Shown piece by piece: positions 24,933 through 48,093 of a stretch of DNA of 64,000 nucleotides. This DNA comes from Botryllus schlosseri (lineage: Eukaryota): NCBI GenBank assembly GCA_051294905.1, contig CM119372.1, positions 31,436,001 through 31,500,000 of the forward strand, read 5' to 3'. The notes below the pieces were generated by a model. That model ran no database searches and was not told the DNA's origin. It was given only the letters and a program-made list of their open reading frames with translations. The first letter of the stretch is position 1. The number at the start of each line of letters is the position of its first letter. Position numbers and translations under genes: made by a program.

Positions 24933-24935
24933 TTT

Positions 24936-24953
24936 TGGTGACCCCGACGTGAT
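24936..24953 (+). promoter_or_regulatory. Primer-binding site, tRNA-Trp
   Basis: TGGTGACCCCGACGTGAT is complementary to the 3' end of eukaryotic tRNA-Trp (…AUCACGUCGGGGUCACCA), 3 nt after the LTR. Confidence 0.9.
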
Positions 24954-25019
24954 ATCGCCAGCCGACTCAACCCCAACGTGCACTAGCCGACTCGCATCCC
25001 TTGCTCCGCTGTATTTGAA

Positions 25020-25930: not shown

Positions 25931-26886
25931 CAGGGCTGTGGAGTCGGTAAATTTTACCACCGACTCCGGCTCCGACTCCGACTCCACACATTTTCAATAT
26001 ACCGACTCCGACTCCGACTCCGACTCCTGAGTCTGTAAATGTACCGACTCCGACTCCGACTCCGACTCCTGGGCCTTTAAACGTACCGACTCCGACTCCG
26101 ACTCCCGACTCCGACTCCAGCATTATTACCAATTTACTTCGAAAATTATATGCCACATTGTCGGCTGAAAGACTATCATACAACCATTAAACATATGCAA
26201 ACATATGATCAACTGTGGCATGCTAAATTGTTTCATTGTGGCACAGCTCGAATTATCCACGATGCAATTAACATGAAATAAAGATTTGCTAAATCTCCTT
26301 CCTTATTCAAGTTTTTATAACATGGACTCTCTAATATCCTGAAATGTATGAATCATTCAAATATGGCAGATATCCAATCCTGTATAATAAAAATGTAGAT
26401 AAAAAATCCAAGTGTAGCTCTTGTGTATGACTCAGCAACTAATAAAGAATTTGAACTTACTAATTTTGTAATTGCACACTATCCTGATTACAAGCACAAA
26501 CACTCTTACTACTAATGTTAGACATTGGTCATAAATGGAATTTCGTTAAGTAGTCAAAGACCATAGCCTACGTCTAGTCTACATGTAATTAATCAAGTAT
26601 TCAAGGATTAGGACTTGCAGTCTTTCTTAATCATTTGTTCGACCCAAACAGCTCAGCTACACTACAAATATTTTTAATTTTGTCAAGTGGGAAGCATCGT
26701 TTGGTCATATTTACATCATTTTTACAATTTTACAAAACCAGCCGATGCATTTTCTCTGTCACAGTATCATGGTATAATTCCAAAAATTGCATCAATTTTG
26801 ACTGCATCGCGAAAACGCATCTTGCGATTTTCTTCCCCTCTGCAACTGAGTTGTAATTTGCAAGTAATGTCTAATTTATTCTATAT

Positions 26887-27725
26887 CAGGGGTGGGCAAC
26901 TTTTTCGGCGAAAGGGACACCTGAGATTTACGAACCATTGCGCGTGCAACTGGAATGTTGATAACCTTTTTTTAGTCGTCGATAGGAGCGAACCGCATTA
27001 GGTAACATTGCAAACAAGACTTATATTAATACGCTCTAAAATTGATAATAATATGTCATGCAACTGTGCAGTGCGCAATCAGGCCCTGGTCGCGCCAAGC
27101 GCGAAATTTTTTTGCAAGATAACGACTGAATTAGGCTATAGCTATATCAATAAATATGTCGTTAACATACATTGGGGGTCGGATCTGTATACCACTGGGC
27201 TCATTTGGCAAGGACAGGATTATTCGACGTTTAGACATAGCAAAATCGACGGTATCAGTGAACATGCCTCATCATTTTGTGCAAATGTTTTGTCGACGAT
27301 CTCGCGGCGAGTTCACAAGCGAAGCCGTATCTCCTAATTGCGAACATAGTTAGACTCAATTCTGTGAATAATATGTATTTATAATTTTCAGAAGGGGGCT
27401 CAAATACTGAATGCAAGAAATCTAGTGACAATGAATCATGCGAAGTACCGAGAAAAATTTCAAGTCAAATAAATCTGCTGTGAAATATTCTACTTCATGG
27501 TCATATAAGAAGATCTGGGATAAATGTGGCTGACCCCTGGATACGTCAATGCGTCAGAACTGTTGTTTTAGTCATCATCAAATTTCGCGGTCATGCTAAT
27601 CAAATTTTGGTTGGCCTTGCAATTGTACCTGATGTCATAAATAATTTCGAGAATTACCTCGCAGGCCACACCTAACCTTCGCGTGTGCCAAATTTGGCCT
27701 GCGTGCCACAGGCTGGCCGCACCTG
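26887..27725. mobile_element. Nested hAT MITE (family of 13646)
   Basis: Ends CAGGGGTGGGCAAC / GGCTGGCCGCACCTG, degraded TSD TTCTATAT/ATCTGTAT. Confidence 0.8.
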
Positions 27726-27742
27726 ATCTGTATGGTTTATAA

Positions 27743-29044
27743 CAGGCCTGGGCAAAGTGCGGCCCGCGGGCCACATGCGGCCCGCGAAGCTATTCTGTGC
27801 GGCCCGCGAAAGGTTGCTTGGAATTCAAAACATAATACTTGCTTGTTGAACGACTAAAACCATAGGCTGCGTATCAACTCAACGGGAAATTAGTTTACTT
27901 TGAAGCCTTCGTACCTTGCATGCGTAATCCAGATTCAAAATAAAGGCCATGTGACAAAGTATGAGTGGCAATTAAAATAACAAGAAATCACTCTTTCCAT
28001 ATAGTTTAGTTCAAACCAGCATCTTTGTGGCCATTGTCGCATTACGCATTATACGGCATGTGTTTCAAATTGTTACGCGTGCTCCGTTTCCAAATCCCTA
28101 ATTCGTAAAACAAGTCAATCAGTGCTTGCGATTACTATATGGCTGATCAACTCATCATATCTATCACCCATTAAGAAATAACGGACATGCCAAAAAAAGA
28201 AAGCTGAAAACTGAAATTCAATGAAGATTTAGACTTCAGACTTTCTAGCACTAAATAGCCTATTTGTATATTGGAGTCAGGGGTAAAGCCGTCCTTTTAG
28301 TTTTTGCCGAGCATGTCGTCGAGATTACGGATTTTACTTAATGTCGGTCTTATGACACAAATACAGAACACTCGATCAAGGGAGGGCAAATTTCAGGAAA
28401 ATGCATGCTTCGCTCAACATGAAGGCTATTAAAGTGCGGCCAAGAAAATAAGCTTTGTACTATTGCATATACATTTCAGTGCAGTGTTTCTCGAAGTGGG
28501 GTGCGTGAAAGCATCAGAAGAGGGGCGCGAAGCCGAAGTTTAGTGAAATTTTTTTTCGCGCTCGGCGCGATCTACCCCAGCAGCTTACAGTTATTGCTCT
28601 GTGTATTGTTCGACTTTGATATGAATTCACTCATCGACAACCATATTCTCCCACGCCATCCAACTATCCGCTGGTATTGCTAGCATTCTAGCTGCACTTT
28701 TTACTATTTTGTGACATCATGATAAGGGGCGCGCGAAAGTTTTCACTATCATAAAGTGAGGCGTACCTAAAGAAGTTTGAGAACCACTGTTCTAGAGTCT
28801 GAATATATGAACGTGGATAGCGGTTTGAAGAGAGTTAAAATGCATCATGTCTAGCATTGTTTCGAATCAGGACAGCAAATACATATTTTTTAATTAACCG
28901 TCAATTTCTCATTACCTGACGTGAGCACATTCGCTGATCAGCATTTATTAACGATGTTATTTAGAAATAAAATTGAAATACGGCCCGCCAACGTATTTTC
29001 CACTTCTCATTAGGCCCGCGGAGGAAAATAATTGCCCATCCCTG
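27743..29044. mobile_element. Nested hAT (Buster-type) MITE
   Basis: Ends CAGGCCTGGGCAA / TTGCCCATCCCTG, TSD GTTTATAA, GGCCCGC repeats. Confidence 0.88.
28482..28789. mobile_element. Innermost nested hAT MITE
   Basis: Ends CAGTGTTTCTCGAA / TTTGAGAACCACTG. TSD degraded. Confidence 0.7.
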
Positions 29045-29348
29045 GTTTATAATAACAGTGATTGGTGGTACATAAAAACTCTATTGAAAATTATTTGAAA
29101 GCAAATGTTTTCATGATAGAGAAGTTGGAGTCGGAGTCGGAGTCGAAGTCATAGTCATTCTCACAAACTCCGACTCCGACTCCAGTCAGTATTTTCCCAC
29201 CGACTCCGACTCCGACTCCGACTCCAGCTATTATAGTTTTCGTGACTCCGACTCCGACTCCGACTCCATCAAGTGAAAATCACCCCGACTCCGACTCCGA
29301 CTCCACCGACTCCGACTCCGACTCCACAGCCCTGTCCTCAAATCGCCC

Positions 29349-32300
29349 TTTTTTAGGCGGAGGCCTCGTGAGGGATCGCAACAATTTTCAACAGTGAACT
29401 CCGAACGTGAAAACCCTTTATTGCATGTGCGAGATTCGATTTCAGGGCAGATTTTCCTCGTCGATACAGGAGCATCCGTTTCTGTTTTGCCGACTTCGAG
29501 TAACGTTTTAAAAAGTAAACCAGGACCAAATCTGTACGCTACAAATGGATCAAAAATTGCGACGTTTGGAACGAGATATTTACGGATCGAGCTCTCCGAT
29601 AGACACAAGTATGGATTTCGATTCTATATTGCCGATACACACATTGCCATATTGGGGGCTGATTTTATTGAGCGATTTTCTCTCGTCGTTGATTTGAGGA
29701 ACAATTGTCTGATTGATACGGTTTCAGGAGGTTTCATTCCTGGCTGGAAGTGTAATCCAGTAGTTCGCGGTTTGAACTTTATAGCGCCTGATCACAATAC
29801 GCCATATGTAGATCTTTTGTCGAGATTCAACGACATTACCGTTCCACGGAATGCAGCAGTACGAGCTAATCACGGTACTGTACATCGTATTATTACTAAA
29901 GGATGTCCCACTCGTTGTCGCTGTCGCCCATTGCCGCCCCATTTGAAACAAAAGGTGAAGAATCGATTGCAAGAGATGTTGAAGTCCGGTGTAATCATTC
30001 GCTCAAAATCGCCTTTCGCCTCTCCCATCACTGTCGTACCGAAGGGGATAGATGATATTAGAATCTGTGTCGACTATAGGAAATTAAACAATCAGACGGT
30101 CAAGGATCGCTGGCCTGTCCCATTTCTGCGTGATTTTACCAATGAACTGTCGAACTGTAATGTTTTTAGCAAAGTTGACTTAGCGAAGGCGTACCATCAA
30201 ATCCCTCTTCATCCGGACGATCAAGAGAAGGCTGCTTTTATTTGTCCCGAAGGACTATTCCAACCAACGACGATGATGTTTGGCTTGACCAACGCTTGTA
30301 GTACTTTTAGCCGTTTTATATCCGAAGAAACCGAAGGACTGGACAATATTTTTGCGGTTTTAGACGACATTTTAATTGCGACTCGGACTGAAGAAGAGCA
30401 CATGGCAACATTGTCGAAATTGTTTTCAAGGTTTTGTAAGTTCGGACTGGTCATAAATGTTGATAAGTGCAGTTTCGGTAAGGAAGAAATCGAATTTTTA
30501 GGTCACCTTGTTAATGCAAGGGGAATTAGTCCCTTGCCGTCTAAGGTTGAAGTAATCTCTAACTATCCTCGTCCCGAAAATGTAAAACAACTACGTTCAT
30601 TCCTTGGACTAGTCTGCTATTACCACCGTTTTGTCAAAAAGTGTGCCGAGATTTTGAAGCCACTGTATGACGTGGCCAATGCAGCATCGAATAAACGTGA
30701 TCGTGTCAAATGGACAGATAGTGCTAACACAGCTTTCGAACGCATCAAGACCGAACTGTCCGATAATATCATATTATCCCACCCGATTCACGATGCTGAA
30801 CTGTCACTCGTGGTTGACGCTAGTCAAGTCGGAATTGGAGCTGTTTTGCAACAGAAACGTGATGATTCGTGGTTACCCTTAGCATTCTTCTCGAAAACCT
30901 TGAACCCGACACAGCGCAAGTACTCCGCATTTGATCGCGAGCTTTTAGCGGCTTATTCAGCAATAAAGCATTTTCATGTCCAGCTAAAGGGTAGGAAATT
31001 TCAACTGATTACCGATAATGACGGCCTTGTAAAATCGTTAAGGAATCCAACCGACAGACTTCTGGATCGTCAAGCAAGACAGTTGGAATTCATCACGGAA
31101 TATACCGACGACGTTAGACACATCAAAGGGACTCTGAACACGGCTGCGGATACTCTCTCCAGGCTCGAGGTGAACGCGATTTTTCCGAACACTGTTCCCA
31201 TCACAGCCGAAGCATTACTAGAAGCTCAGAAAGGCGACGATGAGCTCAAAGAACTCCTCGCTAACGCTGGTGACCATTCGTTGGATCTCGCGGAAGTACA
31301 TTTCGAAGAGTTGAAGGATCCTATCATCTTCGACAAATCGTTACCTGGTAGAGAACGTCCCTACGTTCCTGCGGCGCTTCGAGAGACTGTAATGCACAGT
31401 GTGCATGATATTTCACACCCCGGTATACGCGCGACCACTAAATTAATAGCTGAACGTTATGTATGGCCCGGCATGAAACGACATGTGAACGATTTCGTCC
31501 GTCATTGTCAGCAGTGTCAACGATCGAAGATTCATAGGCATAATCGAACTGCAATTAGCAATCTTCCCGTCCCTTCCGAACGCTTTCACACGGTTAACGT
31601 GGACATTTTATCACTCCCTAATAGTTGTGGCTACTCGTATATTTTGATGTGTGTTGATCGCTATACTCGCTGGCCTGTATGTGTTCCAATGATGGACATT
31701 CGTGCCCAAACTGTTATTGATGCGTTTAGTTTTGGCTGGGTGTCGAATTTCAGCTCACCCCGTAAAGTCATAACCGACCGAGGAAGCCAGTTTACCTCGC
31801 TTGAATGGACTCGGTATATGCAATTCTTGGGTATTTTTCATATCACAACTTTGGCGTATAAGCCGGAGCAAAATTCTCTTGTCGAACGCTATAACAGAAC
31901 TTTGAAAGCCTCCCTCCGCGCATTAGAAAGTCCTCATAATTGGTATCATCACTTAGGCTTAATTGTTTTAGGGCTGAGATGTTCTGTCAAGGAAGATCTC
32001 GGTTATTCACCAGCAGAGCTTGTGTATGGCACTTCCCTTCGACTACCCGGTCAATTAGTCAATCCTTCTTCCAGTGGTAATAACGCTAATGATTTCAACT
32101 ACGTTGGTGAATTGAAACGCTTTTTCTCAGCCGTGGGTGAGATGCCGACTAAGTCTCATTCGAATCAAAAATCTTATGTCCCAAACGATTTGAATAATTG
32201 CACGCACGTTTTCTTGCGGATAGATGGTCATCGTAGATCACTCGATCCGGTTTATTCTGGTCCACACCAAGTTTTAAAACGCACTCATAAATGTTTCACA

Positions 32301-32504
32301 ATTCAAACGAATAAGGGTCCGTATGACGCCTCAACCGACAGGCTTATACCTGGCAGACTTCCCATCGAGCGTCTCGAAGAATTGACGCCACCGCAAGCTA
32401 ATATTTCGCGAACGAACTCTGTGTCGGCCAGCGGCCGTAATATTCGTACTCCACATCACTTGAATGATTTTGTGTTGTCACCAGTATTTAAAATGGATAT
32501 TTAG
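29349..32504 (+). CDS. pol: Pol polyprotein (protease, RT, RNase H, integrase), probably expressed by -1 frameshift
   Basis: LVDTGAS protease; RICVDYRKLN, KVDLAKAYHQ and VLDD in RT; VDAS/DRELLA in RNase H; HHCC and D,D35E in integrase; GPH in the GPY/F position. Uninterrupted frame, open back to the slippery site TTTTTTA at 29349. Confidence 0.95.
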   Translation, partial: FFRRRPREGSQQFSTVNSERENPLLHVRDSISGQIFLVDTGASVSVLPTSSNVLKSKPGPNLYATNGSKIATFGTRYLRIELSDRHKYGFRFYIADTHIAILGADFIERFSLVVDLRNNCLIDTVSGGFIPGWKCNPVVRGLNFIAPDHNTPYVDLLSRFNDITVPRNAAVRANHGTVHRIITKGCPTRCRCRPLPPHLKQKVKNRLQEMLKSGVIIRSKSPFASPITVVPKGIDDIRICVDYRKLNNQTVKDRWPVPFLRDFTNELSNCNVFSKVDLAKAYHQIPLHPDDQEKAAFICPEGLFQPTTMMFGLTNACSTFSRFISEETEGLDNIFAVLDDILIATRTEEEHMATLSKLFSRFCKFGLVINVDKCSFGKEEIEFLGHLVNARGISPLPSKVEVISNYPRPENVKQLRSFLGLVCYYHRFVKKCAEILKPLYDVANAASNKRDRVKWTDSANTAFERIKTELSDNIILSHPIHDAELSLVVDASQVGIGAVLQQKRDDSWLPLAFFSKTLNPTQRKYSAFDRELLAAYSAIKHFHVQLKGRKFQLITDNDGLVKSLRNPTDRLLDRQARQLEFITEYTDDVRHIKGTLNTAADTLSRLEVNAIFPNTVPITAEALLEAQKGDDELKELLANAGDHSLDLAEVHFEELKDPIIFDKSLPGRERPYVPAALRETVMHSVHDISHPGIRATTKLIAERYVWPGMKRHVNDFVRHCQQCQRSKIHRHNRTAISNLPVPSERFHTVNVDILSLPNSCGYSYILMCVDRYTRWPVCVPMMDIRAQTVIDAFSFGWVSNFSSPRKVITDRGSQFTSLEWTRYMQFLGIFHITTLAYKPEQNSLVERYNRTLKASLRALESPHNWYHHLGLIVLGLRCSVKEDLGYSPAELVYGTSLRLPGQLVNPSSSGNNANDFNYVGELKRFFSAVGEMPTKSHSNQKSYVPNDLNNCTHVFLRIDGHRRSLDPVYSGPHQVLKRTHKCFTIQTNKGPYDASTDRLIPGRLPIERLEELTPPQANISRTNSVSASGRNIRTPHHLNDFVLSPVFKMDI

Positions 32505-32834
32505 TGTGTTCTCATTTACTTTTCCGCCATCACTTGTATTTTTTTCGCAACAGGCATTACATCTCCTCTAATGTTCTGTAAATCGTGTCTTGAGCCTTTC
32601 ACATTGTAAACTGCATATTATCGCTAAACGAATCATTTTGTCGTTATAGCTTTACCATACCACACCCACGTCGCTATCGTATTCGTTATACCATTAGAAT
32701 CGTACTCGTATTTCGAAACCTAATCTGTAATCATTGCCATGTCATGCTGGTAGCGTCATTCATTCGTAGTTAAATCGTTGACTGATGTAGTGTCCATATT
32801 ATATCCTGAAGCTTTTACCAACCAGGGGGGCCCT

Positions 32835-33094
32835 TGTAGCGTACCGCTCCACGATTATCCTAATTACCCTCGCTGATCACTGATTTGATTATGCTTCTAT
32901 ACTTGTTGCTGTTGCGAACCTATGTTGTGTCAGTCGCTTTTAGTCACCGTCCGAGCCAGTCGTCTTTTAGTATCCGTCGGATGAGCATCGTCATGTTTTA
33001 GTTGTTTTATTAAAAGAGCAATGCTGACTTGTCTACTTTGACTTATCGAGCCGCGGACCAAGAAGAACGCGCGCCCACGACAGAGCACGCTATA
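32835..33094 (+). repeat. 3' LTR
   Basis: Identical by eye to 24673-24932, followed by TSD ACTC. Confidence 0.97.
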
Positions 33095-35722
33095 ACTCTG
33101 TGTACCGCGGATATCAGAAAATATTTTACAAATTTAATTGTTTCCAGTTACCAAGACTAAAGACGAAACAACAATTGCGTTTGCTGCTTAACAACCGGTA
33201 CAATACTTTATTTTCGGAATCTGCGACATCGAATTGAAACATACGCACATCACGCAGTACGAAAATATCACTTGGGAACTCGAGGGTATCATTCAATATG
33301 TGTTAAACTCTTTTCACACTATCTGTCGAACGCGTGAAATGTAAAACATTACGAGGTTACGCTCTAAGATTTTGATCATCAAGAAAGTAAATAGAGGTAT
33401 GCTTGTTGGATACGTCCTATTCAACCGGTCTTGATTGGTACAAAACTCATAACAATAATAAAATTGAAGTATGTGCTACACTGAATTCTACAAAAATGTG
33501 TTTGTATTGCTGTTCGTAGTAGTGATATCGATTTGAACCTCCGGAATAGTTGTCATCATCTAACCAAACTACTAAAAGTCGTTGTCAATCTGTATGATGT
33601 TCACTGATTGCATACTAGAACTATTTGTGCAACACACACGACCAGAGAAATTGGAAATTTTCCCATTGTCATTCATCAAAGTAAATGTCGTCACAATACT
33701 CAGTCACTAAAAAACCATGTACTTGTATGTGATTGAATCATCGGTAATTAACTAGCTAAATCAAACCACTAAGAAATTCCACTCACTCATTGGGTATTAA
33801 ACAGCGTCGCTTAATCGGTGTGAGTCGTTTTTTTCTAAATACAAATCATATCTGTCTATCAGAAAACAATTTTCACTCACTTGGGTAATGAAACCAGTGT
33901 GCGATATTAATACAAGATATTTCCGTCACACAAATAATAATCAACTTCACTCGATATTCCCATGCTACGAAACTGTACAATGGTTTCATGTTTTTGTATG
34001 ACATGGAATTAATACCGATCGAAGTAACCGTATTAGAAATGACTTTCAAACAAAGACACTATGGGCCGTATGCACCAACATGTTTTGAACCCAAACTGGA
34101 GCTCAAACAGGGGTTCAGGAGATATTTCCAAAGCACCAACAATGAAACGTCAATGATCTAGCGTTCACTCGCGCCGAATTTGATCGAAAAGTAAACAACC
34201 GCGGGAGGTTGTTTAAAATGTAGTTCAGTGCTTTGGCATGGTTATCGCTGATTGTGGTCTCCTGTTTCTCGCGACTGGTTGACTGTAAATTGGTTCATGT
34301 TGAAGACGTAGGTGCACAATTTGCTATCTTTCCGTAAATTAGCAGACTTTCTAAGCTGTAGGAATAGATTTTAGATGTTTCCGAACCCAGTTTCACCAAT
34401 GTGAGGCCGAATGGCTTACAGTTTACTGTTAGTTGATCGGTATACCGGTATTAGCGAGTATAGTGGTGAGCCAGGAAATCCATATGACTGCCTCAAGGTA
34501 CCGGTAATGAAGATGCAATATTCTTGTCTTGCGCCTTGTAGGTTTGAATGAAAGACCTTCGGGTCAAAAATGAATGAAAATTATGACCAAGTCTGACGTC
34601 TGTATACAGTGTACAGTTTTTGAAGTACCCTGCGGGGTGCAATTGATGAGGCGTGTTCCCTATAAAGTTTGATATATTTCACCATCATTGAAGCTATGCC
34701 AGTACAGCCGATATTACAGTAGATTGTCCTCATAGCCCAAATGACCGGGTTGGAATCCCGGTACGTTTAGCGTAATATATTTGGTGTACCACGACGGTTT
34801 TCAGCGTCACACCTGTGTATATTAGTAGAATCTTTGATGTGCACGAGACACCGATTCCATATTGGCGAAATGGAAAGCACGTAGCTGCCGGCTGCCAATG
34901 TCACGGCATGTCATGAATTGCTGAATCCTCTTTTATGTAACTGTTTCAAGTTTAGTATGAAGTATGAGTACGGAATTTAGTAAAATGGACCCAAAACAAA
35001 ACTGAAAGTTGATTTGCTTGCCAATGATGTAGGTTGTCGATTGAGTTATGGGAGCAGAAGCTGTATGGATTTGTACCAGACGTCAGGAATCGTGGTCCTG
35101 TGATTTGCGCTCGCGGTCGACCGTAGATAGGTTGGTTTTGGAGCCGCATGTCTTGCAAATCTCTATATTATAGTAATTTTACAGGTTTTAGGTTACATGA
35201 GTGAAATATATACACGTCCTAACAACGATAAAGCGTTTCACTAATCTGGAGATTCTCGGATTAGGTCACAGTCAAAGAGAACCGGCATTATCAAGTGATG
35301 TCGGCCAAGAGACCATCCTCAAAAATGTGCATAATATGCAATAATATTATGTTGGAAGAAGACACATATACATATACAAAAGAATCACCATGAAACTGAA
35401 GGTTATCGATTCCGATTTTGATGTACTTCGCAAAGAAGAGGGGACTAACTCTGGCTCGTATATCAATCGCTAGAGATTTTGGCTGAATATCATTACAAAG
35501 TTATCTGTCTGAGTCAAATTCCCCAAAAAGTCAATGACTGCAGGAGTACTCTAGTGGTAGGACCGAGAAATCAAAAAACCAGGGCCCCGTGGATATACTC
35601 AGCTATCGCAGCTCCCGCAGCTATCGCAGCTATCACTTGTGGATATACTCAGCTATCACAGCTATCGCAGCTATCACCAAAAATCGCAGACATACAGGTC
35701 ATTTAAAGGTCACGTATCGTTT

Positions 35723-36823
35723 AGGGCGCAGCTATCAGCTCCGCAGCACGTCTGGGTTCAAATAGGGCGCAGCTATCAGCTTCGGAGCACGTCCGGGATG
35801 AAATAGTGCGCAGCTATCAGCTCTGGAGCACATCTGGGTTCAAATAGTGCGCAGCTATCAGCTTCGGAGCACGTCCGAGATGAAATAGTGCGCCGCTATC
35901 AGCTCTGGAGCACATCTGGGTTCAAATAGTGCGCAGCTATCAGCTCCGGAGCACATGTGGACTCGAATTATGAGCAACTATCGGCTCCAGAGGTAGTCCG
36001 GGTTCAAATAGTGCGCAGCTATCAGTTTCGGAGCAAGTCTGAGTTGAAATAGTGCGCAGCTATCAGCTCCGGAGCACATGTGGACTCGAATTATGCGCAG
36101 CTATCGGCTCCAGAGGTAGTCCGGGTTGAAATAGTGCGCAGCTATCAGATCCGGAGTACGTCCGTGATGAAATAGTGCGCAGCTATCAGCTTTGGAGCAC
36201 GCCTGGGTTCAAATAGTGCGCAGCTATCAGCTCCGGAGCACGCCCAGATGCAAATAGTGCGCAGCTATCAGCTCGGGAGCAAGTCTGAGTTGAAATAGTG
36301 CGCAGCTATCGGCTCCAGAGGTAGTCCGGGTTGAAATAGTGCGCAGCTATCAGCTCAGGAGCACGTCCGGGGTGAAATAGTGCGCAGCTATCAGCTCAGG
36401 AGCACGTCTGGGTTGAAATAGTACGCAGCTATCAGCTCCAGAGGTAGTCTGGGTTCAAATAGTGCGCAGCTATCAGCTCCGGAGCACGCCCGGATGCAAA
36501 TAGTCCGCAGCTATCAGCTCAAAAGCACGTCTGGGTTCAAATAGTGCGCAGCTATCAGCTTCGGAGCACGTCCGATATGAAATAGTGCGCAGCTATCAGC
36601 TCAGGAGGACGTCTGGGTTGAAATAGTGCGCAGCTATCAGCTTCGGAGCACGCCCGGATGCAAATAGTGCGCAGCTATCAGCTCAAAAGCACGTCTGGGT
36701 TGAAATAGTGCGCAGCTATCAGCTCCGGAGCACGTCCGGGTTGAAATAGTGCGCAGCTATCAGCTCTGGAGCAAGTCCGGGTGCAAATAGTGCGCAGATA
36801 TCAGCTCCAGAGCACGTCTGGGC
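35723..36823 (+). repeat. Left 41-bp tandem array (~27 units)
   Basis: Core AAATAGTGCGCAGCTATCAGC plus a ~20-bp variable part. Period 41 (35771 to 35812). Truncated by a MITE end at 36824. Confidence 0.95.
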
Positions 36824-36844
36824 CAGTGTTGGGATGACTCGAGT

Positions 36845-37397
36845 CAGGGTTGTAACAAGGCTCCGAGTCAGAAGTCACTCTCAGTTTTATAGTTTTAAAT
36901 CGAGTCCAGTGAAGTCATTTTCAATTCGCCACCGAGTCAAGTCCGAGTCCAAGTCATCGAGCAGAGGTTCGAGTCCGAGTCATGGTATTATGACTCGAGT
37001 CCGAGTCCAAGTTATCCTGTAGATGTGTTGACTGCTCGTTTTCCATTTAAAGTCTTGTTAAACCCACTTTCTATAACTCGCTTTGGTGATATCGAATGGT
37101 TCGCATTCATAATATAGGCTACTAATTTTCCTCACTTTTAAATGTTTCTGGTCGCATTTTCAAGTATCAGTAACAATAGGGTGGTTAATTTACAATTCTT
37201 CGAAATTTCAATGAAATGTCGGTCTTGGCCGTCTAAGTCTCGAGTCATAATGACTTGGTTCGAGTCATGTGCAATTACACATATAGACTCGAGTTGAGTC
37301 GAGTCATTTCCGTATTTTGAGAAAATGACTTGAGTCAAGTCGAGTCATCAGAAAATTGTGACTTGAGTCGATTCATGATCGATTGATTACAACCCTG
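36845..37397. mobile_element. hAT MITE, CAGGGTTGTAA family, nested in the end of a CAGTGTTGGGATGACTCGAGTC element starting at 36824
   Basis: TIRs present, TSD ACTCGAGT/ACTCTAGT. The host terminus is identical to that at 59675. Confidence 0.85.
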
Positions 37398-37529
37398 ACT
37401 CTAGTCATGACTTGGATGTTGAATTTGGTTCAATTCCAACCAGTAGCCGCATTGCTACAGGAGAAGAAAGATTCAATTTATTTAAAAAAAATAAATAACA
37501 AAAAATTTGGTTCAATTCCAAACAGTGGA

Positions 37530-37673
37530 AGCGGAGTTATTGCCGTCGAAAAATTTGGATTTGAATAAAATAGTATTTATGATGGGCACCACTATAATAA
37601 ATAATTAAAGAATTAATCACGGTAAATACTATTTTATTCATAATCCAAATTTTTCGACGGCAATAACTCCGCT
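37530..37673. repeat. ~50-bp near-perfect inverted repeat with a ~43-bp spacer
   Basis: AGCGGAGTTATTGCCGTCGAAAAATTTGGATT...ATAGTATTTA versus TAAATACTAT...AATCCAAATTTTTCGACGGCAATAACTCCGCT. Confidence 0.9.
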
Positions 37674-38234
37674 GTAGTCATTATATAAAACGTGAGACTT
37701 TCGTTTCATCCAATCGCGGATATATTTCATGAAAATATGTTTGAATCAGGCTTGTTGGCACGTACCCTTATGCATGGAATGTGCAGCGGATTATTTACTC
37801 ATAGTAGTTTGATATAGTTCCCAGGCGAGTAGGTCTCCGAGCTATATTTTATTCATGAGATACCAATCAAAGTAACACACCCTTCTTCTGGTGCACCAGT
37901 ATCGAAATATTGTCTTTGGGCCATGCATTATATTAATTAGATACGTATAAGGCCCGTGTAGTGAGTATATAGGCCTCAATATACTATACCTGCAGTCGCA
38001 CACGTCCGATATCAGATCAGTGAATATCTATGATAGGCAGAGCCGATAGTAGGGAAGGCCTACACTACATCCACGGAATCGCACAGGTGTTAGTCAGCAT
38101 AATTATTCGTGAGCAGAGCTTTTAATACAAAGTAACGAAATTTCTTTTGATCCCGTGTAGATGTCAGAATATCTGTTCACCGCATGTACACTGAAAATCA
38201 GGAAGATAGTCCTTGCATGCAATGCAATGAATGA

Positions 38235-41200
38235 ATTCGAGTCCACAGGTGCTCCGTAGCTGATAGCTGCGCACTATTTGCATCCGGACTTGCTCCGGAG
38301 CTGATAGCTGCGCACTATTTCAACTCAGACTTGCTCCGGAGCTGATAGCTGCGCACTATTTGAACCCAGACTACCTCTGGAGCTGATAGCTGCGCACTAT
38401 TTCAACCCGGACGTGCTCCTGAGCAGATAGCTGCGCACTATTTCAACTCAGACTTGCTCCGGAACTGATAGCTGCGCACTATTTGAACCCAGACGTGCTT
38501 TTGAGCTGATAGCTGCGCACTATTTCAACTCAGACTTGCTCCGGAACTGATAGCTGCGCACTATTTCAACTCAGACTTGCTCCGGAACTGATAGCTGCGC
38601 ACTATTTCAACTCAGACTTGCTCCGGAACTGATAGCTGCGCACTATTTGAACCCAGACGTGCTTTTGAGCTGATAGCTGCGCACTATTTCAACCCGGACT
38701 ACCTCTGGAGCCGATAGTTGCGCAAAATTCGAGTCCACATGTGCTCCGGAGCTGATAGCTGCGCACTATTTGAACCCAGACTACCTCTGGAGCTGATAGC
38801 TGCGCACTATTTCAACCCGGACGTGCTCCTGAGCTGATAGCTGCGCACTATTTCAACTCAGACTTGCTCCGGAACTGATAGCTGCGCACTATTTGAACCC
38901 AGACTACCTCTGGAGCTGATAGCTGCGCACTATTTCAACCCGGACGTGCTCCTGAGCTGATAGCTGCGCACTCTTTCAACTCAGACTTGCTCCGGAACTG
39001 ATAGCTGCGCACTATTTGAACCCAGACGTGCTTTTGAGCTGATAGCTGCGCACTATTTCAACTCAGACTTGCTCCGGAACTGATAGCTGCGCACTATTTG
39101 AACTCGGACTACCTCTGGAGCCGATAGTTGCGCAAAATTCGAGTCCACATGTGCTCCGGAGCTGATAGCTGCGCACTATTTGCATCCGGACTTGCTCCGG
39201 AGCTGATAGCTGCGCACTATTTGAACCCGGACGTGCTTTTGAGCTGATAGCTGCGCACTATTTCAACTCAGACTTGCTCCGGAACTGATAGCTGCGCACT
39301 ATTTGAACCCAGACGTGCTTTTGAGCTGATAGCTGCGCACTATTTCAACCCGGACTACCTCTGGAGCCGATAGTTGCGCAAAATTCGAGTCCACATGTGC
39401 TCCGGAGCTGATAGCTGCGCACTATTTGAACCCAGACTACCTCTGGAGCTGATAGCTGCGCACTATTTCAACCCGGACGTGCTCCTGAGCTGATAGCTGC
39501 GCACTATTTCAACTCAGACTTGCTCCGGAACTGATAGCTGCGCACTATTTGAACCCAGACTACCTCTGGAACTGATAGCTGCGCACTATTTCAACCCGGA
39601 CGTGCTCCTGAGCTGATAGCTGCGCACTCTTTCAACTCAGACTTGCTCCGGAACTGATAGCTGCGCACTATTTGAACCCAGACGTGCTTTTGAGCTGATA
39701 GCTGCGCACTATTTCAACTCAGACTTGCTCCGGAACTGATAGCTGCGCACTATTTCAACTCAGACTTGCTCCGGAACTGATAGCTGCGCACTATTTGAAC
39801 CCAGACGTGCTTTTGAGCTGATAGCTGCGCACTATTTGAACCCAGACTACCTCTGGAGCTGATAGCTGCGCACTATTTCAACCCGGACGTGCTCCTGAGC
39901 TGATAGCTGCGCACTATTTCAACTCAGACTTGCTCCGGAACTGATAGCTGCGCACTATTTGAACCCAGACTACCTCTGGAGCTGATAGCTGCGCACTATT
40001 TCAACCCGGACGTGCTCCTGAGCTGATAGCTGCGCACTATTTCAACTCAGACTTGCTCCGGAACTGATAGCTGCGCACTATTTGAACTCGGACTACCTCT
40101 GGAGCCGATAGTTGCGCAAAATTCGAGTCCACATGTGCTCCGGAGCTGATAGCTGCGCACTATTTGCATCCGGACTTGCTCCGGAGCTGATAGCTGCGCA
40201 CTATTTCAACTCAGACTTGCTCCGGAGCTGATAGCTGCGCACTATTTGAACCCAGACTACCTCTGGAGCTGATAGCTGCGCACTATTTCAACCCGGACGT
40301 GCTCCTGAGCTGATAGCTGCGCACTATTTCAACTCAGACTTGCTCCGGAACTGATAGCTGCGCACTATTTGAACCCAGACTACCTCTGGAGCTGATAGCT
40401 GCGCACTATTTCAACCCGGACGTGCTCCTGAGCTGATAGCTGCGCACTATTTCAACTCAGACTTGCTCCGGAACTGATAGCTGCGCACTATTTGAACTTG
40501 GACTACCTCTGGAGCCGATAGTTGCGCAAAATTCGAGTCCACATGTGCTCCGGAGCTGATAGCTGCGCACTATTTGCATCCGGACTTGCTCCGGAGCTGA
40601 TAGCTGCGCACTATTTCAACTCAGACTTGCTCCGGAGCTGATAGCTGCGCACTATTTGAACCCAGACTACCTCTGGAGCTGATAGCTGCGCACTATTTCA
40701 ACCCGGACGTGCTCCTGAGCTGATAGCTGCGCACTATTTCAACTCAGACTTGCTCCGGAACTGATAGCTGCGCACTATTTCAACTCAGACTTGCTCCGGA
40801 ACTGATAGCTGCGCACTATTTCAACTCAGACTTGCTCCGGAACTGATAGCTGCGCACTATTTCAACTCAGACTTTCTCCGGAACTGATAGCTGCGCACTA
40901 TTTCAACTCAGACTTGCTCCGGAACTGATAGCTGCGCACTATTTCAACTCAGACTTGCTCCGGAACTGATAGCTGCGCACTATTTGAACCCAGACTACCT
41001 CTGGAACTGATAGCTGCGCACTATTTCAACCCGGACGTGCTCCTGAGCTGATAGCTGCGCACTATTTCAACTCAGACTTGCTCCGGAGCTGATAGCTGCG
41101 CACTATTTGAACCCAGACTACCTCTGGAGCTGATAGCTGCGCACTATTTCAACCCGGACGTGCTCCTGAGCTGATAGCTGCGCACTATTTCAACTCAGAC

Positions 41201-42824
41201 TTGCTCCGGAACTGATAGCTGCGCACTATTTCAACTCAGACTTGCTCCGGAACTGATAGCTGCGCACTATTTCAACTCAGACTTGCTCCGGAACTGATAG
41301 CTGCGCACTATTTGAACCCAGACGTGCTTTTGAGCTGATAGCTGCGCACTATTTGAACCCAGACTACCTCTGGAGCTGATAGCTGCGCACTATTTCAACC
41401 CGGACGTGCTCCTGAGCTGATAGCTGCGCACTATTTCAACTCAGACTTGCTCCGGAACTGATAGCTGCGCACTATTTGAACCCAGACTACCTCTGGAGCT
41501 GATAGCTGCGCACTATTTCAACCCGGACGTGCTCCTGAGCTGATAGCTGCGCACTATTTCAACTCAGACTTGCTCCGGAACTGATAGCTGCGCACTATTT
41601 CAACTCAGACTTGCTCCGGAACTGATAGCTGCGCACTATTTCAACTCAGACTTTCTCCGGAACTGATAGCTGCGCACTATTTGAACCCAGACGTGCTTTT
41701 GAGCTGATAACTGCGCACTATTTCAACCCGGACTACCTCTGGAGCCGATAGCTGCGCATAATTCGAGTCCACATGTGCTCCTGAGCTGATAGCTGCGCAC
41801 TATTTCAACTCAGACTTGCTCCGGAACTGATAGCTGCGCACTATTTGAACCCGGACTACCTCTGGAGCCGATGGTTGCGCAAAATTCGAGTCCACATGTG
41901 CTCCGGAGCTGATAGCTGCGCACTATTTGCATCCGGACTTGCTCCGGAGCTGATAGCTGTCCACTATTTCAACTCAGACTTGCTCCGGAACTGATAGCTG
42001 CGCACTATTTGAACCCAGACGTGCTTTTGAGCTGATAGCTGCGCACTATTTGCATCTAGGCGTGCCCCGGAGCTGATAGCTGCGCACTATTTGAACCCAG
42101 ATGTGCTCCAGAGCTGATAGCTGCGCACTATTTCATCCCGGACGTGCTCCGAAGCTGATAGCTGCGCACTATTTGAACCCAGACGTGCTTTTGAGCTGAT
42201 AGCTGCGCACTATTTCAACTCAGACTTGCTCCGGAACTGATAGCTGCGCACTATTTCAACTCAGACTTGCTCCGGAACTGATAGCTGCGCACTATTTGAA
42301 CCCAGACGTGCTTTTGAGCTGATAACTGCGCACTATTTAAACCCGGACTACCTCTGGAGCCGATAGCTGCGCATAATTCGAGTCCACATGTGCTCCTGAG
42401 CTGATAGCTGCGCACTATTTCAACTCAGACTTGCTCCGGAACTGATAGCTGCGCACTATTTGAACCCGGACTACCTCTGGAGCCGATGGTTGCGCAAAAT
42501 TCGAGTCCACATGTGCTCCGGAGCTGATAGCTGCGCACTATTTGCATCCGGACTTACTCCGGAGCTGATAGCTGTCCACTATTTCAACTCAGACTTGCTC
42601 CGGAACTGATAGCTGCGCACTATTTGAACCCAGACGTGCTTTTGAGCTGATAGCTGCGCACTATTTGCATCTGGGCGTGCCCCGGAGCTGATAGCTGCGC
42701 ACTATTTGAACCCAGATGTGCTCCAGAGCTGATAGCTGCGCACTATTTCATCCCGGACGTGCTCCGAAGCTGATAGCTGCGCACTATTTGAACCCAGACG
42801 TGCTCCGGAGCTGATAGCTGCGCC
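38235..42824 (-). repeat. Right 41-bp tandem array (~112 units), inverted relative to the left array
   Basis: Core GCTGATAGCTGCGCACTATTT, period 41 (38298 to 38339), higher-order blocks. Confidence 0.97.
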
Positions 42825-42974
42825 TAAACGATACGTGACCTTTAAATGACCTGTATGTCTGCGATTTTTGGTGATAGCTGCGATAGCTGTGATAGCTGAG
42901 TATATCCACAAGTGATAGCTGCGATAGCTGCGGGAGCTGCGATAGCTGCGATAGCTGAGTATATCCACGGGGCC

Positions 42975-43600
42975 TTACAAAGTTATCTGTCTGAGTCAAA
43001 TTCCCCAAAAAGTCAATGACTGCAGGAGTACTCTAGTGGTAGGACCGAGAAATCAAAAAACCAGTCATGGAAATGTGCATAATATGACTGCTTTGGAATT
43101 GAATCATGTTGGGGGAAGGTAGCCTACATCAACATGGACCACATTCATCTCGATTTCTACAATATCGTCAACATGTAATTGAAGGTCATTCATTCTGATA
43201 TTGATTTACTGCTCATGCTCAAAGAGGTGACAAACTGCCCTGGGTCGAACGTCAATTGCTAGAGATTTGGGCTGAATATCATTACAAAGTTTGCTGTCTG
43301 TGCCAAATTCCCCAAAAAGTCAATGACTACAAGAATACTCGAGTGGTAGGACCGTGAAATCAAGAAACCAGTCATGGAAATGTGCAAATATGACCGATTT
43401 GGAATTGTACCATGTTGGGGGAATGTTGCCTACATCAACATGGACCACATTCATCTCAATTTCTACAATAGCATCAACATGCAACTGAAGGTTGTCCATT
43501 CTGATATTGATGTAGCCTACTGTGCCTGTGTGATGATGGGACTAACTACCTTGGTCCGAAAGTCAATTGCTTTATATTTTGACTGATCGTCATTCCGAAG
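42975..43600. repeat. Diverged ~307-bp tandem repeat inside the Harbinger element (first copy ~35320-35582)
   Basis: GGCTGAATATCATTACAAAGTT at 35481 and 43270; CCAGTCATGGAAATGTGCA at 43061 and 43368. Confidence 0.85.
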
Positions 43601-46504
43601 TTTGATGCTTGAGTCAACCCGCCAAAAATATGAATATACCACCAATCGAAATAAAGTGAATGATTAGATCGACTCTGAAAAATGCTTCGGTTGGCACTAT
43701 GATAAGGGATGTACAAATCTTACATATTCTATAACAAATCATCTTTTATCTCTAGCAAGGTGCTTACAATAATGCTTGAAAGTATGAATAGCATGGTATT
43801 TTATCTTGTCTAGAGCAGAAAATGTTAGGTGTGCACACTGTGCAGTACTCATGATTGAATGAAAAGGTTTTTACTTGGATGAGTTTGTATTTGTAGACTA
43901 TTTTCATTTCATGTGTTTGGCTATCATGATAATTTATTGTGTGATGATGAAGACCAGACCCTGGAGATTCCTATTTACTTGACAAAAATGCAAATTGAAG
44001 GATTTCAGTTCTTTTCAAACTGTTCAAGTATACAACATGGTCATGAACAATGAAATAAGTCTGTCGATTTGTGTTACTTTATCAGTTGAGAATGTTGAAT
44101 ATATGCTGTGCAGATATGGTAGTTGGATGGGATTGTCGGGCTATTGAGAGAACACAGTAATGGTGGAATCTCGGCAAGTTTTGCGCAATTGATTAGGGGA
44201 GCACTGATGATTCTCAAGGTGACAGTAAGGTACTCCCAAGAAATTAAGGAAGCACAGGACACTCATTCCGTTCGGGTTAGATTCGAATGTGGGTAAAACA
44301 ATGAAGGTGATATTCCACACTGTGAACACACAGAACAAGTTGTGCGGGGTGAGGACAGTGGGTGTAAAGAGCCATTGGCCCTCGATTTTTACAGACAGTG
44401 TGGTGTCAAATATATATTCATAAGCCAGGATATTGTAAATTTTCGCCCTGTCCTTCAATTTACCTCCTGGCAGGGCATCGCCAGTAAAGCCATGACTAAA
44501 TTTTGGAACTTTAAAAGCATGATGGCAAAGCTAGCAATGGTATTTGATTCGAAAATGGTTACAGAAATATAGCCGGAGTTTTGTGAATGTGCTCAGCTGC
44601 TCATCATTGAAATGGACATCGCGCTAGCGACCGCTGAGTTCCACAAAAACCTTGTTTTGTTTACCATTCGGTCGGCCTTGAGTAGCTTTTCAGGGGGCAA
44701 ATTGAGCATCTATTTACTGAACGCTAGCTCGTCTCAATTATCATCAGTTCGTCTGAACGGCGTTTAAATATCGATGGTGCATCGCGAAAAATTTTGAACT
44801 GATGTTTCGTTTGAGTTATGTTCGAGCGAACAGACGATCAGACTTGAACGTGTTCAATGTTGGTGCATACGGCCCTATATGTGGTTTACATTCTCATCGA
44901 TCCTATTGTGATCAATGTAATATACTTCATGTGATCTAGATTCATTTCGATATTGTTAAACATTCAACCTCGACGGATACGAATTGTCACACACTCAAGT
45001 AATATCATACCAAATAGTTATTTACAACAACCAAGACATAGAAAATTTGTTTTGGCCGTTTCGATTTTATTACTGGAGGTACTCATCACTTCGCCTAATA
45101 CAATCTAGATTTAAACTCCGTCTATAGTTTTGCTGGATACGAATTATGTTAGTGTAAACAATTTTCACTATCTTGGGTTATGAACTCAGTGTGTTAGCGG
45201 TCATTCAATATTTTGTTGTATCAACTAGTTACTTTGTAGGATACGAATGATCATCCCTACAACTCTTACAAAAGTACGAAGGATATTTACATCACGCAAA
45301 GTAATCAACTTTACTCGATATCCTCACACTACGAAACTAAATGTTTGGTTATACTCTACAAACTGTTTCTGATGTCACAAGAACTTTTTACACGAATGGT
45401 CACGCATCTAAATATTCAAATAATCCGACACACCTTACAGAAATATCATAGTTCTTGTAACAAAGTTGTATAAGCATAATGTTTATCGTAAGTCCTATAC
45501 AGTCATGATATCCGCCCGAGTTTGACTTTTAGAAAACATTATACCGACATCGATATATCTTTCAAAAACAAAAACCCTGTTCACTGCTCGAGAGGTCTAC
45601 CAACGTCATCGCAGTAATACATTTACTTCCACAAAAGAGTATGTATTCGACTTACGTTCCACAAATCTAACGCGCAAAACAATTTACTTTGCTAATGAAA
45701 AGTGCCGAGTCATCATATGGTTGTCCTCACAACAATACAACTAAAACATACTATCATACAAAATGGCCGTTATAGTTTGCTCACCAACGGTACATCGTAC
45801 AAGTAACAAGTCTCGAGAATCGATTTATTGAATAACGTGAAAGTGTTTTTTCCAGTGTCAAGTCGTTATGTTGATGAAAGCGTATATTGTCATATCATAC
45901 GATCAATTTGCATACGTTGGTCACAAACTGCCACTACTCTAAATAATTCTTTTTCACTCAAACACAAAAGTATACTTGTCACCATTCGTTTTCATCAAGC
46001 ACAAGTTCAAGAAACTTACTTACTACGACAAGGTTGTTATTTTTATGTTGTGTAAATAGGTAATAATTAATTTCAGTAACACTATATCAACATCATCGAG
46101 TTGTGCGAATAGTTTTACATGTGGTCTTGTGGTTTTAATCGAAGCACACTGCGTGGTCTAATGTAGAGTCATCTCTATTGTACAGCAACTCGGTAATCGA
46201 AATGCATGCATTAACATTTAAACAACGATCTTGGTTCGTCACGCGAAAAATATCTTTACTGTCGCGACACTCTGATACTCTGCACAAGATGTGTAAATCC
46301 TTTTCACACTCATAGCAATACAATAACGGGATACCAACGTCAATCGACAACGTTTAACAACATCACTAACACTGAACAAACGATACCTACCCAAGTAAAA
46401 TTACCATTTTCACCTGGAGGTCAGCAAAATACCATTGACCTTTGGAGATTTATCGTTTCCTCGGAGTAACAATGCATTTTCACTTGGTGATCAATCGTTT
46501 ATCC

Positions 46505-46695
46505 AGAGTGACAAACCCCTTTTCCTTTGGAAATCTATTTTTCCCTGGGTAACAAACCTTTTTCACTTGGAAATATATTTTTTTCCCTGGGTAACAAACC
46601 TTTTTCACTTGGAAATATATTTTTTCCCTGGGTAACAAACCTTTTTTACTTGGAAATATATTTTTTCCCTGGGTAACAAACCATTTTCACTTGGA
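46505..46695. repeat. ~41-42-bp tandem repeat, 4-5 units
   Basis: GGGTAACAAACCTTTTTCACTTGGAAATATATTTTTTCCCT repeated. Unrelated in sequence to the 41-bp foldback unit. Possibly subterminal repeats of an element starting near 46390 (CCCAAGTA). Confidence 0.85.
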
Positions 46696-48093
46696 TAAAC
46701 GATTTGCTCTCTGCTAGGTGAATTACTGGCTGAGTATCACTACAGCCTAAGAAACTGCACTAATTCTCATTTTAATGTCTTGCTGGTTATCTTGCTGTCA
46801 ATTCTAATAATTTGTTAATGTCTATACCAGTGCCGCCACTCAAATGTTTTGTTCTCTGTACACAGTATTGTTAGGTCTTCAGCTTTCCAGGCAGAGTATC
46901 ATTCCACTTTCTAGACTTGAGTATATATCTCTCCAACTAGCTGCCAAATAACTGATTCATTTGGATTGTTGAATTGATCATTTTTGACAGAATGTGAAGA
47001 AATTTTAGTCAAGAATTCTTTTTGTGTTAGTGGCTGTTTTCAAAGATTGCTGAAGTAGTCATCGTTGATCTTGATAATCAAGTAGAAGTGGCGATTGAAG
47101 TCAGTTCTCTAGTCATATAATAATAAAGAATATAATAATAAAAACTTGAAAACTTGAGTGGAAATAGTCCAGAATCAAATCCATTTTAGTAAGTATGGGT
47201 GAAAAAAATGTAGGAGTCATTCGTTACTCGCTACCTCTGCCATTTTCGCTGTACGAATGTCTTAGCTAATAATCGTCATTTTCATTTTATTTCTACAGGG
47301 TGTTGAAAAGGAAACGCCAGAGGGATTATCATCATCAGACGATGAAACCTTCTGATTACTGACTGTTCTCATAGTTTCATTTATTGCTACTTGGCCCTAC
47401 AAGTAATTTCGTTCGTTTCATTTTTTACACCGGCATTATTTACTTGCCAATTCGTTTTGAATTAACTTACCGCAAATGTGATTAATATGTAGTAGATAAA
47501 GTGGTGTGTGTGTGTGTGTGTACGCAGCCGTGATCAGGTTATCCCCAGTGGTAGAAAACAGGTTATTATATCAGGATATTCTTTTAATGTAGGATCTACA
47601 TTCTACTCACCATGTTTAAAGACTGTAGCATCTGCATAATATTTACATTATTGAAGGACATGGAAAAGACATTGAATTGGGTCGACACAAAATCCCCCTT
47701 TCTACGACCTGCCGAGATCTAATATCTACTATATCAGGCTCGGCTTTCTACATCTTTGTTCTGTACTGTGTTTACTTGGATGTTTCATGTATTTTGTCCA
47801 TACAGTTTCAACGGTGGTTGACGCTCAACGGTCCAACGAACGCTAAAAAGTCAAGCACCACTTATTCCTATTTGAATTACACTCGCTGTGCGGCAATAAT
47901 GTTAGACGATAAGATAGTTCCAAATCTTGTTTCTGAGCCATATTGACGGTGATGAAACATGTCATGCGGGCGACAATGCGGTATTAAAGGAACCTGCTAC
48001 CAAAATAATAGTTTCGCGAGAACATACATAGTTGAATCATTGTTGGTAATAAGCCAAAAAAGTTCCTAAATTCCTCTCTCTCTCTCATTAGAA

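What the first reader, a model, noticed from the sequence alone, without database searches (positions are those of the whole stretch)
35583..42974. Foldback element whose inverted arms are strictly phased 41-bp constant-plus-variable arrays
Seen: both ends share the TIR GGCCCCGTGGATATACTC, then GCAGCTATC motifs at ~9-bp spacing, ~140 bp of unique inverted sequence, and inward arrays of a 41-bp unit (21-bp constant core plus a ~20-bp cassette drawn from about 8 variants). The arms are very asymmetric (~27 vs ~112 units). Phase is exact over about 3.8 kb: the rare CCGAT variant recurs at 38711, 39121, 39367, 40105, 40515, 41745, 41868, 42360 and 42483, and all spacings are multiples of 41. Known: GGCC termini fit PIF/Harbinger, whose Myb/SANT partner binds short subterminal repeats, and foldback elements can seed satellite DNA. 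Inference: a transposon protein-binding motif has been amplified into a helically phased (~4 turns) satellite carried by a mobile element nested inside another Harbinger.
Basis: partly seen in the sequence, partly recalled or inferred. Interest (0 to 1): 0.72.

Follow-up and report, generated by a model that had tools for sequence, protein, structure and literature searches.

The report
Foldback transposon with 90-base flanking duplication
A 7.4-kb gene-less jumping element whose two mirror-image arms are filled with 41-base tandem repeats is a real example of an already known kind of element, but this copy sits between two identical 90-base copies of its landing site, far longer than the 2-10 bases such elements normally duplicate.

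Summary
Observation confirmed: shared inverted ends at 35583 and 42974, 27 and 112 units of 41 bp, exact phase. The same end occurs with other flanks in 3 of 4 public runs laid, from two species, so this is a dispersed family. The units are ordinary variant minisatellite repeats (6-7 differences of 41), not core-plus-foreign cassettes. Exact phase follows from in-register duplication, and helical phasing is unsupported. Foldback elements with tandem-repeat arms are known (Tetris, Galileo, FB), and the scan earlier noted another such family in this genome. Harbinger membership is unproven for both this element and its gene-less host element. A paralogous host repeat shows the empty site, and a rare base shared by both copies shows the duplication was made locally. 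Most likely this is a one-off aberrant (hybrid-end) transposition. A family that routinely makes long duplications, like bacterial IS1634, is not excluded (about 15%), because no genome was held to measure other copies.

The parts
35583..42974 (.). Whole foldback element, 7392 bp, no detectable gene
   Evidence: Inverted ends; 0 Pfam hits in 6 of 6 frames of the loop; 0 Rfam hits in 33500-45500
35493..35582 (+). Left copy of the perfect 90-bp direct repeat (88-90 bp, depending on whether the outermost purine is counted to the element)
   Evidence: Only exact flanking duplication length among 1-399 bp, 0 mismatches
42975..43064 (+). Right copy of the 90-bp direct repeat
   Evidence: the paralogous 307-bp host unit holds this stretch once with no extra bases
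35583..35721 (+). Left terminal domain (139 bp): end motif, 9-bp GCAGCTATC-type repeats, a second GTGGATATACTC module, then unique sequence
42827..42974 (-). Right terminal domain (148 bp), with one extra 9-bp repeat
35722..36822 (+). Left 41-bp array, 26 full units plus a truncated one; heterogeneous (25 distinct types in 26 units)
38236..42826 (-). Right 41-bp array, 112 units; homogenised (27 types in 111 units; 12% of unit pairs identical) with higher-order block duplications
36824..36844 (+). Left end of a different (CAGTGTTGGG-ended) transposon family, at the point where the left array stops in mid-unit
   Evidence: Same start at 59675; no matching right end in the window
36845..37397 (.). 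Nested hAT-like MITE (CAGGGTTG ends, 8-bp duplication with one mismatch)
   Evidence: Sister copies at 12284-12832 and 19136-19629 with their own 8-bp duplications; 'hAT-like' is recalled from end and duplication type
37530..37673 (.). 144-bp palindromic small element in the loop (32-bp perfect arms)
34063..44875 (.). Outer host element: 19-bp inverted ends GGGCCGTATGCACCAACAT, TAT on both sides, about 3.3 kb without the insertion, multi-copy, no gene found
35385..43617 (+). About 307-bp diverged tandem repeat of the outer element (35385-35582 and 42975-43617), interrupted by the insertion; its second unit is a natural empty site

Best explanation
A non-autonomous foldback DNA transposon of undetermined superfamily. 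Shown: inverted ends, tandem-repeat arms, no gene, other copies at other sites, recent insertion into a copy of another dispersed element. Inferred: a transposase made elsewhere binds the ends; the 9-bp subterminal motif was captured into a 41-bp unit that serves as extra binding sites; the arms grow and shrink by in-register unequal exchange or slippage; and the left arm was cut short where a foreign transposon end begins. The 90-bp duplication most likely comes from one aberrant transposition, in which the two ends were joined to the target in separate steps about 90 bp apart (hybrid-element insertion between sister chromatids or homologues after a first insertion at one edge of the repeat). 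That leaves the whole element between two copies of the interval.
For: Both ends are intact to the base and abut the duplication exactly, which points to transposase joining at both ends. The paralogous host unit holds the 90 bp once, and contigs of X17, X19 and X5 span that paralogous unit uninterrupted (table 8). The G at 35543 is read as A in all covering contigs of X17, X19 and X5 and in 1104 of 1139 summed depth in X1 (table 3), yet both duplicates carry G, so the duplication was copied from this locus. Eleven contigs in 3 of 4 runs carry the element end with other flanks (table 7; 22 of 74 rows shown). The other bounded inverted-repeat elements in the window have 3- or 8-bp duplications. 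Hybrid-element insertion and alternative transposition produce flanking duplications in P and Ac/Ds, and aberrant transposition is reported for the Harbinger MITE mPing (PMC3744419, PMC2775673, PMC7584900; passages). Right arm: near-identical blocks of 14, 13 and 12 units.
Against: The duplication length of other copies was not measured: no genome is held and one search shows only 30 bases of unpaired flanks. The 90-mer begins TTA and ends CAG, both PHIS-type target triplets (chance 0.4% by window frequencies, a test chosen after seeing the data), but 0 of 3 single-contig flanks of other copies end in TWA or CWG, so I cannot show what a normal target is. No listed contig bridges either junction of this copy (32 pieces shown, 1132 not). 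No precursor allele with the element at one edge only was seen. Binding of any protein to the repeats is untested.
Confidence: 0.6

Rival explanations
1. The family routinely makes long, variable target duplications, as bacterial IS1549 and IS1634 do: the transpososome attacks the two target strands far apart and the gap is filled.
For: One clean event explains everything at this locus: intact ends, perfect 90 bp, private base in both copies. IS1549 and IS1634 make 8-514 bp repeats (PMC2266710, passage). In other copies the base outside the end is G in 8 of 11 contigs, which could be a cut-site preference at each end.
Against: A single copy. I found no eukaryotic inverted-repeat family with such duplications in two searches (listings, plus passages of two hits, where 'long' meant 3 or 9-10 bp). 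Known foldbacks have 7-10 bp.
Confidence: 0.15
2. Two ordinary insertions about 90 bp apart on homologues or sisters (a local hop), followed by unequal recombination between the two element copies, gave a chimeric element flanked by the duplicated interval.
For: Gives the same final structure. The arms share only 3 of 49 unit types and differ in age structure, as a chimera would. Foldback arms are recombinogenic (PMC2775673, passage).
Against: Needs two insertions in one small interval of the same allele, since both duplicates carry the private base. Arm divergence is also expected from independent array turnover.
Confidence: 0.12
3. The duplication, or the long right array, is an assembly artefact, for example a join of two haplotypes or of two repeat copies.
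For: The region is repeat inside repeat; no listed contig bridges the junctions; the array length could not be checked.
Against: Both borders fall exactly on the first base of the inverted ends. There are no N in the window. The variant map of the right arm is non-periodic and has private substitutions, unlike a collapsed or looped repeat.
Confidence: 0.07
4. One reading: a Harbinger element whose Myb/SANT binding motif was selected into a helically phased (four-turn) satellite.
For: The motif sits in the most conserved part of the unit. PIF/Harbinger ends usually start with A or G, and a Harbinger with 760-bp ends is known (PMC4482050 passages, PMC2572040 main text). 41 bp is 4.02 turns at a 10.2-bp pitch.
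Against: Drift of 21-48 degrees per unit at pitches of 10.4-10.6; 22% of lengths would pass the same test; the terminal 9-bp repeats are out of phase. No TWA duplication, no transposase or Myb gene. Harbinger as superfamily is about 40% in my estimate; helical selection is much less.
Confidence: 0.06

Closest known systems
Tetris foldback transposon of Drosophila virilis (PMC4079207; passages read)
   Same: Non-autonomous; long inverted arms with an outer flanking domain and a variable number of internal tandem repeats that share sequence with the flanking domain; variable middle; kb-sized arrays
   Different: Tetris units are about 220 bp and duplications 8-10 bp; here units are 41 bp and this copy has a 90-bp duplication. 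Stand-alone satellite arrays were shown for Tetris and could not be tested here.
Galileo (P superfamily) and FB/FB4 (Mutator-like) foldbacks of Drosophila (PMC2775673, PMC8277862, PMC4079207; passages)
   Same: Long, internally repetitive inverted arms; repeats act as extra transposase sites in Galileo (as cited in PMC4079207); linked to rearrangements
   Different: 7-bp and 9-10-bp duplications; ends and superfamily differ or are unknown here
PIF/Harbinger and other PHIS groups (PMC4482050, PMC9179366 passages; Turmoil-1, PMC2572040)
   Same: Ends start with G (or A/G if the outer purine belongs to the element); long ends are possible (5-1042 bp)
   Different: Defining 3-bp TWA, CWG, ANT or TNA duplication not seen; no transposase or Myb/SANT gene
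Merlin superfamily (PMC8101967; passages)
   Same: 5'-GG ends, internal tandem repeats common
   Different: 8-9-bp duplications; ends 24-462 bp; no transposase here
IS1549 / IS1634 long variable direct repeats (PMC2266710; passage)
   Same: Inverted-repeat element between long perfect target duplications (8-514 bp)
   Different: Bacterial, transposase-encoding, shown over many copies; here one animal copy and no protein link

Membership tests
Foldback elements (structural class) | Long inverted arms with internal tandem repeats around a variable middle | tested here: met
Foldback elements (structural class) | Dispersed copies at different sites | tested here: met
   Eleven contigs with the end motif and other flanks in 3 of 4 runs, organisms A and B (22 of 74 loose-end rows shown)
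Foldback elements (structural class) | No coding capacity | tested here: met
   0 Pfam hits in 6 of 6 frames of the loop; no stop-free frame of 120 aa or more in the element
PIF/Harbinger (inner element) | 3-bp TWA target duplication | tested here: inconclusive
   This copy has 90 bp, beginning TTA and ending CAG; 0 of 3 single-contig flanks of other copies end in TWA or CWG, and flanks could not be paired
PIF/Harbinger (inner element) | Autonomous partner with DDE transposase plus Myb/SANT gene sharing the ends | not testable with these tools
   No genome held; no gene in the element
PIF/Harbinger (inner element) | Ends begin with A or G | tested here: met
   not specific, Merlin also starts GG
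PIF/Harbinger (outer element 34063-44875) | Short inverted ends with 3-bp duplication of TWA type | tested here: inconclusive
   19-bp ends and 3-bp duplication, but it is TAT, not TWA
PIF/Harbinger (outer element 34063-44875) | Transposase and Myb/SANT genes | tested here: not met
   0 Pfam hits in 12 of 12 frames; atlas best score 0.80, hypothetical, chance level; 0 of 111 candidates at E<=0.001 for one frame. A non-autonomous or spliced form is not excluded.
Mutator-like (MULE) foldbacks | 9-10-bp target duplication and MULE transposase partner | not testable with these tools
   Needs other full copies
Merlin | 5'-GG ends with 8-9-bp duplication | tested here: inconclusive
   GG met; duplication of normal copies unknown
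IS1634-like long-duplication elements | Long, variable duplications in many copies | tested here: inconclusive
   One copy with 90 bp; others not measurable
CRISPR-like constant repeat plus unrelated spacers | Spacers unrelated to each other | tested here: not met
   Variable halves differ by 4-10 of 24 bases between classes

The most novel reading that the evidence does not exclude
An animal cut-and-paste transposon family whose insertions regularly duplicate tens to hundreds of target bases, the first eukaryotic counterpart of the unexplained IS1549/IS1634 behaviour. Every jump would then create a local tandem duplication, and the satellite-filled arms may allow the two ends to attack the target far apart (88-90 bp is about one wrap around a nucleosome; recalled figure, speculative).
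Probability: 0.15. Interest if true: 0.8.

Novelty: new member of a known kind. Interest (0 to 1): 0.4.

Why it matters
As a foldback with minisatellite arms it is a clean, young example of how a transposon-end motif becomes a kilobase tandem array, with the two arms frozen at different stages. That idea is already in print (Tetris, Galileo). The 90-bp duplication is the part worth following. As a one-off it is a natural record of aberrant transposition making a tandem duplication in an invertebrate germ line. As a family trait it would break the rule that duplication length defines eukaryotic transposon superfamilies and would give a tractable case for the long-duplication mechanism, which PMC2266710 (2008) describes as having no model. 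One genome-wide count of flanks decides between the two.

Tried and rejected
Whole-genome search: no genome is held, so copy number, normal duplication length, stand-alone arrays and an autonomous partner were not tested. Exact scans for the end motif or the array core found 0 matches in metagenome contigs, prokaryote genomes and viral contigs; these collections are not expected to hold the host. Earlier findings of the scan: no look-alike stretch by sequence, relatives or nearness and nothing by words for an animal case. Four short motifs from the two elements occur in 0 papers; Repbase and Dfam could not be searched, so the family may be catalogued there, and supplements were not searched. 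Searches for a Ciona foldback paper gave 0, and for Harbinger foldback satellites 1 irrelevant-looking hit (listing only). My first guess of a transposase relic at 44141-44530 failed and was withdrawn. An apparent end-like motif in the loop scored no better than 200 shuffles. Structured-RNA reading: 0 Rfam hits; among 74 distinct unit dimers only 2 column pairs showed two pair types, each in 2 dimers, which I take as chance. Helical phasing rejected. Absence of a junction-bridging contig is uninformative: the tables are cut and the insertion may be private to one individual. One search reports 96 bp for this element only because it allows mismatches and shifted borders; the exact value is.
Full report
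OBSERVATION. The element spans 35583-42974 and both ends begin GGCCCCGTGGATATACTC. A global alignment of the first 262 and 270 bases of the two arms shows one 9-bp indel, one 1-bp indel and two substitutions. The left array (35722-36822) has 26 full 41-bp units and a truncated one; the right array (about 38236-42826) has 112 units, the outermost one base short. The window looks like repeat-rich animal DNA. Earlier AI notes call the host a sea squirt; I did not test that.

WHAT THE ARRAYS ARE. Among 137 full units there are 49 distinct types; mean pairwise distance is 7.2 in the left arm, 6.2 in the right and 7.0 between arms, out of 41. The least variable 21 columns run from unit position 40 to 19 and contain the GCAGCTATC motif of the terminal 9-bp repeats (column-shuffle p = 0.0001, inflated because columns are linked). 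The variable half falls into 10 classes that differ by 4-10 of 24 bases. These are homologous variants of a minisatellite, not foreign cassettes. The left arm is heterogeneous (25 types in 26 units). The right arm is homogenised (27 types in 111 units; 12% of pairs identical) and contains near-identical blocks of 14, 13 and 12 units and a recurrent three-unit motif. Growth by in-register duplication keeps phase by itself, so exact phase is expected (inference). The left arm stops in mid-unit exactly where the end of another transposon family begins (36824, same start at 59675), so the asymmetry probably reflects truncation on the left and recent expansion on the right (inference). Helical phasing is unsupported: 3.9 turns and 34 degrees of drift per unit at 10.5 bp, 9 of 41 lengths from 20 to 60 pass the same test, and the terminal repeats are 0.86 turn. 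Against my reading, 41 bp is 4.02 turns at a 10.2-bp pitch. Conservation of the core is compatible with a binding site, as for Galileo (cited in PMC4079207, passage), but binding was not tested.

MOBILITY. Laying four public runs on the left junction gave loose ends with other flanks at the first base of the element: 6 contigs in X17, 3 in X19 and 2 in X5 (another species), none shown for X1; 22 of 74 loose-end rows were shown. In 8 of these 11 contigs the base outside the end is G, and the rest show A in the printed consensus, so the outermost purine may belong to the element or to the target. The border, and with it the duplication length (88-90 bp), is uncertain by one base per side. The loop (36823-38235) is a patchwork: a nested MITE with an 8-bp duplication and two sister copies in the window, a 144-bp palindrome, and unique DNA. 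It has 0 Pfam hits in 6 frames and 0 Rfam hits.

THE MISSED FEATURE. The 90 bases left of the element are repeated without a mismatch right of it (35493-35582 = 42975-43064), the only exact flanking duplication among lengths 1-399. Three results show it arose with the insertion. First, the target lies in a diverged 307-bp tandem repeat of the host element, and the neighbouring unit holds the stretch once with no extra bases; contigs of X17, X19 and X5 span that paralogous unit uninterrupted (table 8). Second, all 4 runs have contigs that continue from the 90-mer straight into the right flank (table 7), although the right copy at this locus reads the same. Third, the G at 35543 is A in all covering contigs of three runs and in 1104 of 1139 summed depth in X1 (table 3; depth is not a copy number), yet both duplicates carry G. 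Other bounded elements in the window have 3- or 8-bp duplications, and the only longer exact repeats outside the arrays are the 260-bp LTRs and a microsatellite.

MECHANISM. Both ends are intact and abut the repeat, which points to transposase joining at both ends (inference). A first insertion at one edge of the 90-mer, followed by hybrid-element insertion of one end at the other edge, gives this structure (my derivation). Such alternative transpositions produce flanking duplications in P and Ac/Ds (PMC3744419 and PMC2775673, passages), and aberrant transposition at element ends is reported for the Harbinger MITE mPing, mostly as deletions (PMC7584900, passages). The repeat starts TTA and ends CAG, both PHIS-type triplets (0.4% by chance, post hoc). 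Against this, 0 of the 3 single-contig flanks of other copies end in TWA or CWG (read by eye). I put the one-off aberrant event at 0.6, a family trait like IS1549/IS1634 (8-514 bp repeats, no model as of 2008; PMC2266710, passage) at 0.15, two insertions plus unequal recombination at 0.12, and an assembly artefact at 0.07. No genome is held, so the deciding count could not be made.

OUTER ELEMENT. It has perfect 19-bp inverted ends at 34063 and 44875 with TAT on both sides, is about 3.3 kb without the insertion, and is present in all 4 runs with several variant contigs. It gave 0 Pfam hits in 12 frames with stops read as X, a chance-level atlas score and no homologue among 111 candidates for one frame. 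'Another Harbinger' rests on GGGCC ends and a 3-bp duplication only.

COMPARISON. It works like Tetris, Galileo and FB: non-autonomous, long arms with internal tandem repeats related to the terminal domain, variable middle (PMC4079207, PMC2775673, PMC8277862; passages). PMC4079207 states that most foldbacks are Mutator-like. PIF/Harbinger is defined by TWA duplications and two genes, with ends of 5-1042 bp starting A or G (PMC4482050 and PMC9179366, passages), and Turmoil-1 has 760-bp ends (PMC2572040, main text without the reviewers' part). Merlin has GG ends, 8-9-bp duplications and often internal tandem repeats (PMC8101967, passages). Superfamily is undetermined; my estimate is Harbinger/PHIS 40%, Mutator-like 25%, Merlin 15%, other 20%. 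Four motifs from the two elements are in 0 papers of the library, and two searches for long duplications in eukaryotic DNA transposons gave no such family (listings, with passages of two hits). The library lacks most subscription papers and Repbase, and supplements were not searched. The scan earlier noted another foldback family with 141-bp satellite arms and foldback Mutator-like elements in this genome (unchecked), but no look-alike of this family.

VERDICT. The 90-bp duplication is the open point and is cheap to resolve. Interest 0.40.

Noticed in passing
window 24673-33094: Gypsy-type LTR retrotransposon with 260-bp LTRs that are 100% identical and a 4-bp duplication (ACTC); gag-like and pol-like frames at 24987-26030 and 29277-32504 (named by eye, not scanned).
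   Followed up: partly
window 25931-29334: 3.4-kb element with CAGGGCTGTGGAGTC ends, CCGACT repeats near both ends and a perfect 8-bp duplication, inserted into the young LTR element.
   Followed up: no
window 12284-12832, 19136-19629, 36845-37397: Three diverged copies (69-76% identical) of a MITE family rich in GACTCGAGTC with 8-bp duplications; the third sits in a GACTCGAGT site of a related element, possibly self-targeting.
   Followed up: partly
window 59675-61740: About 2-kb element starting CAGTGTTGGG with TGACT-rich subterminal repeats; it appears to contain another inverted-repeat element.
   Followed up: no
window 46498-46713: A second, unrelated 41-bp tandem array (4.5 copies, AT-rich) inside a 212-bp stretch with 13-bp inverted ends.
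   Followed up: no
window 35589-35677, table 5c: Contigs of three runs show the GTGGATATACTC plus 9-bp-repeat module repeated with different spacers, so the terminal domain is itself modular across the family.
   Followed up: no
window 52382-52833 and 56229-57108: Two further short inverted-repeat elements with perfect 8-bp duplications.
   Followed up: no
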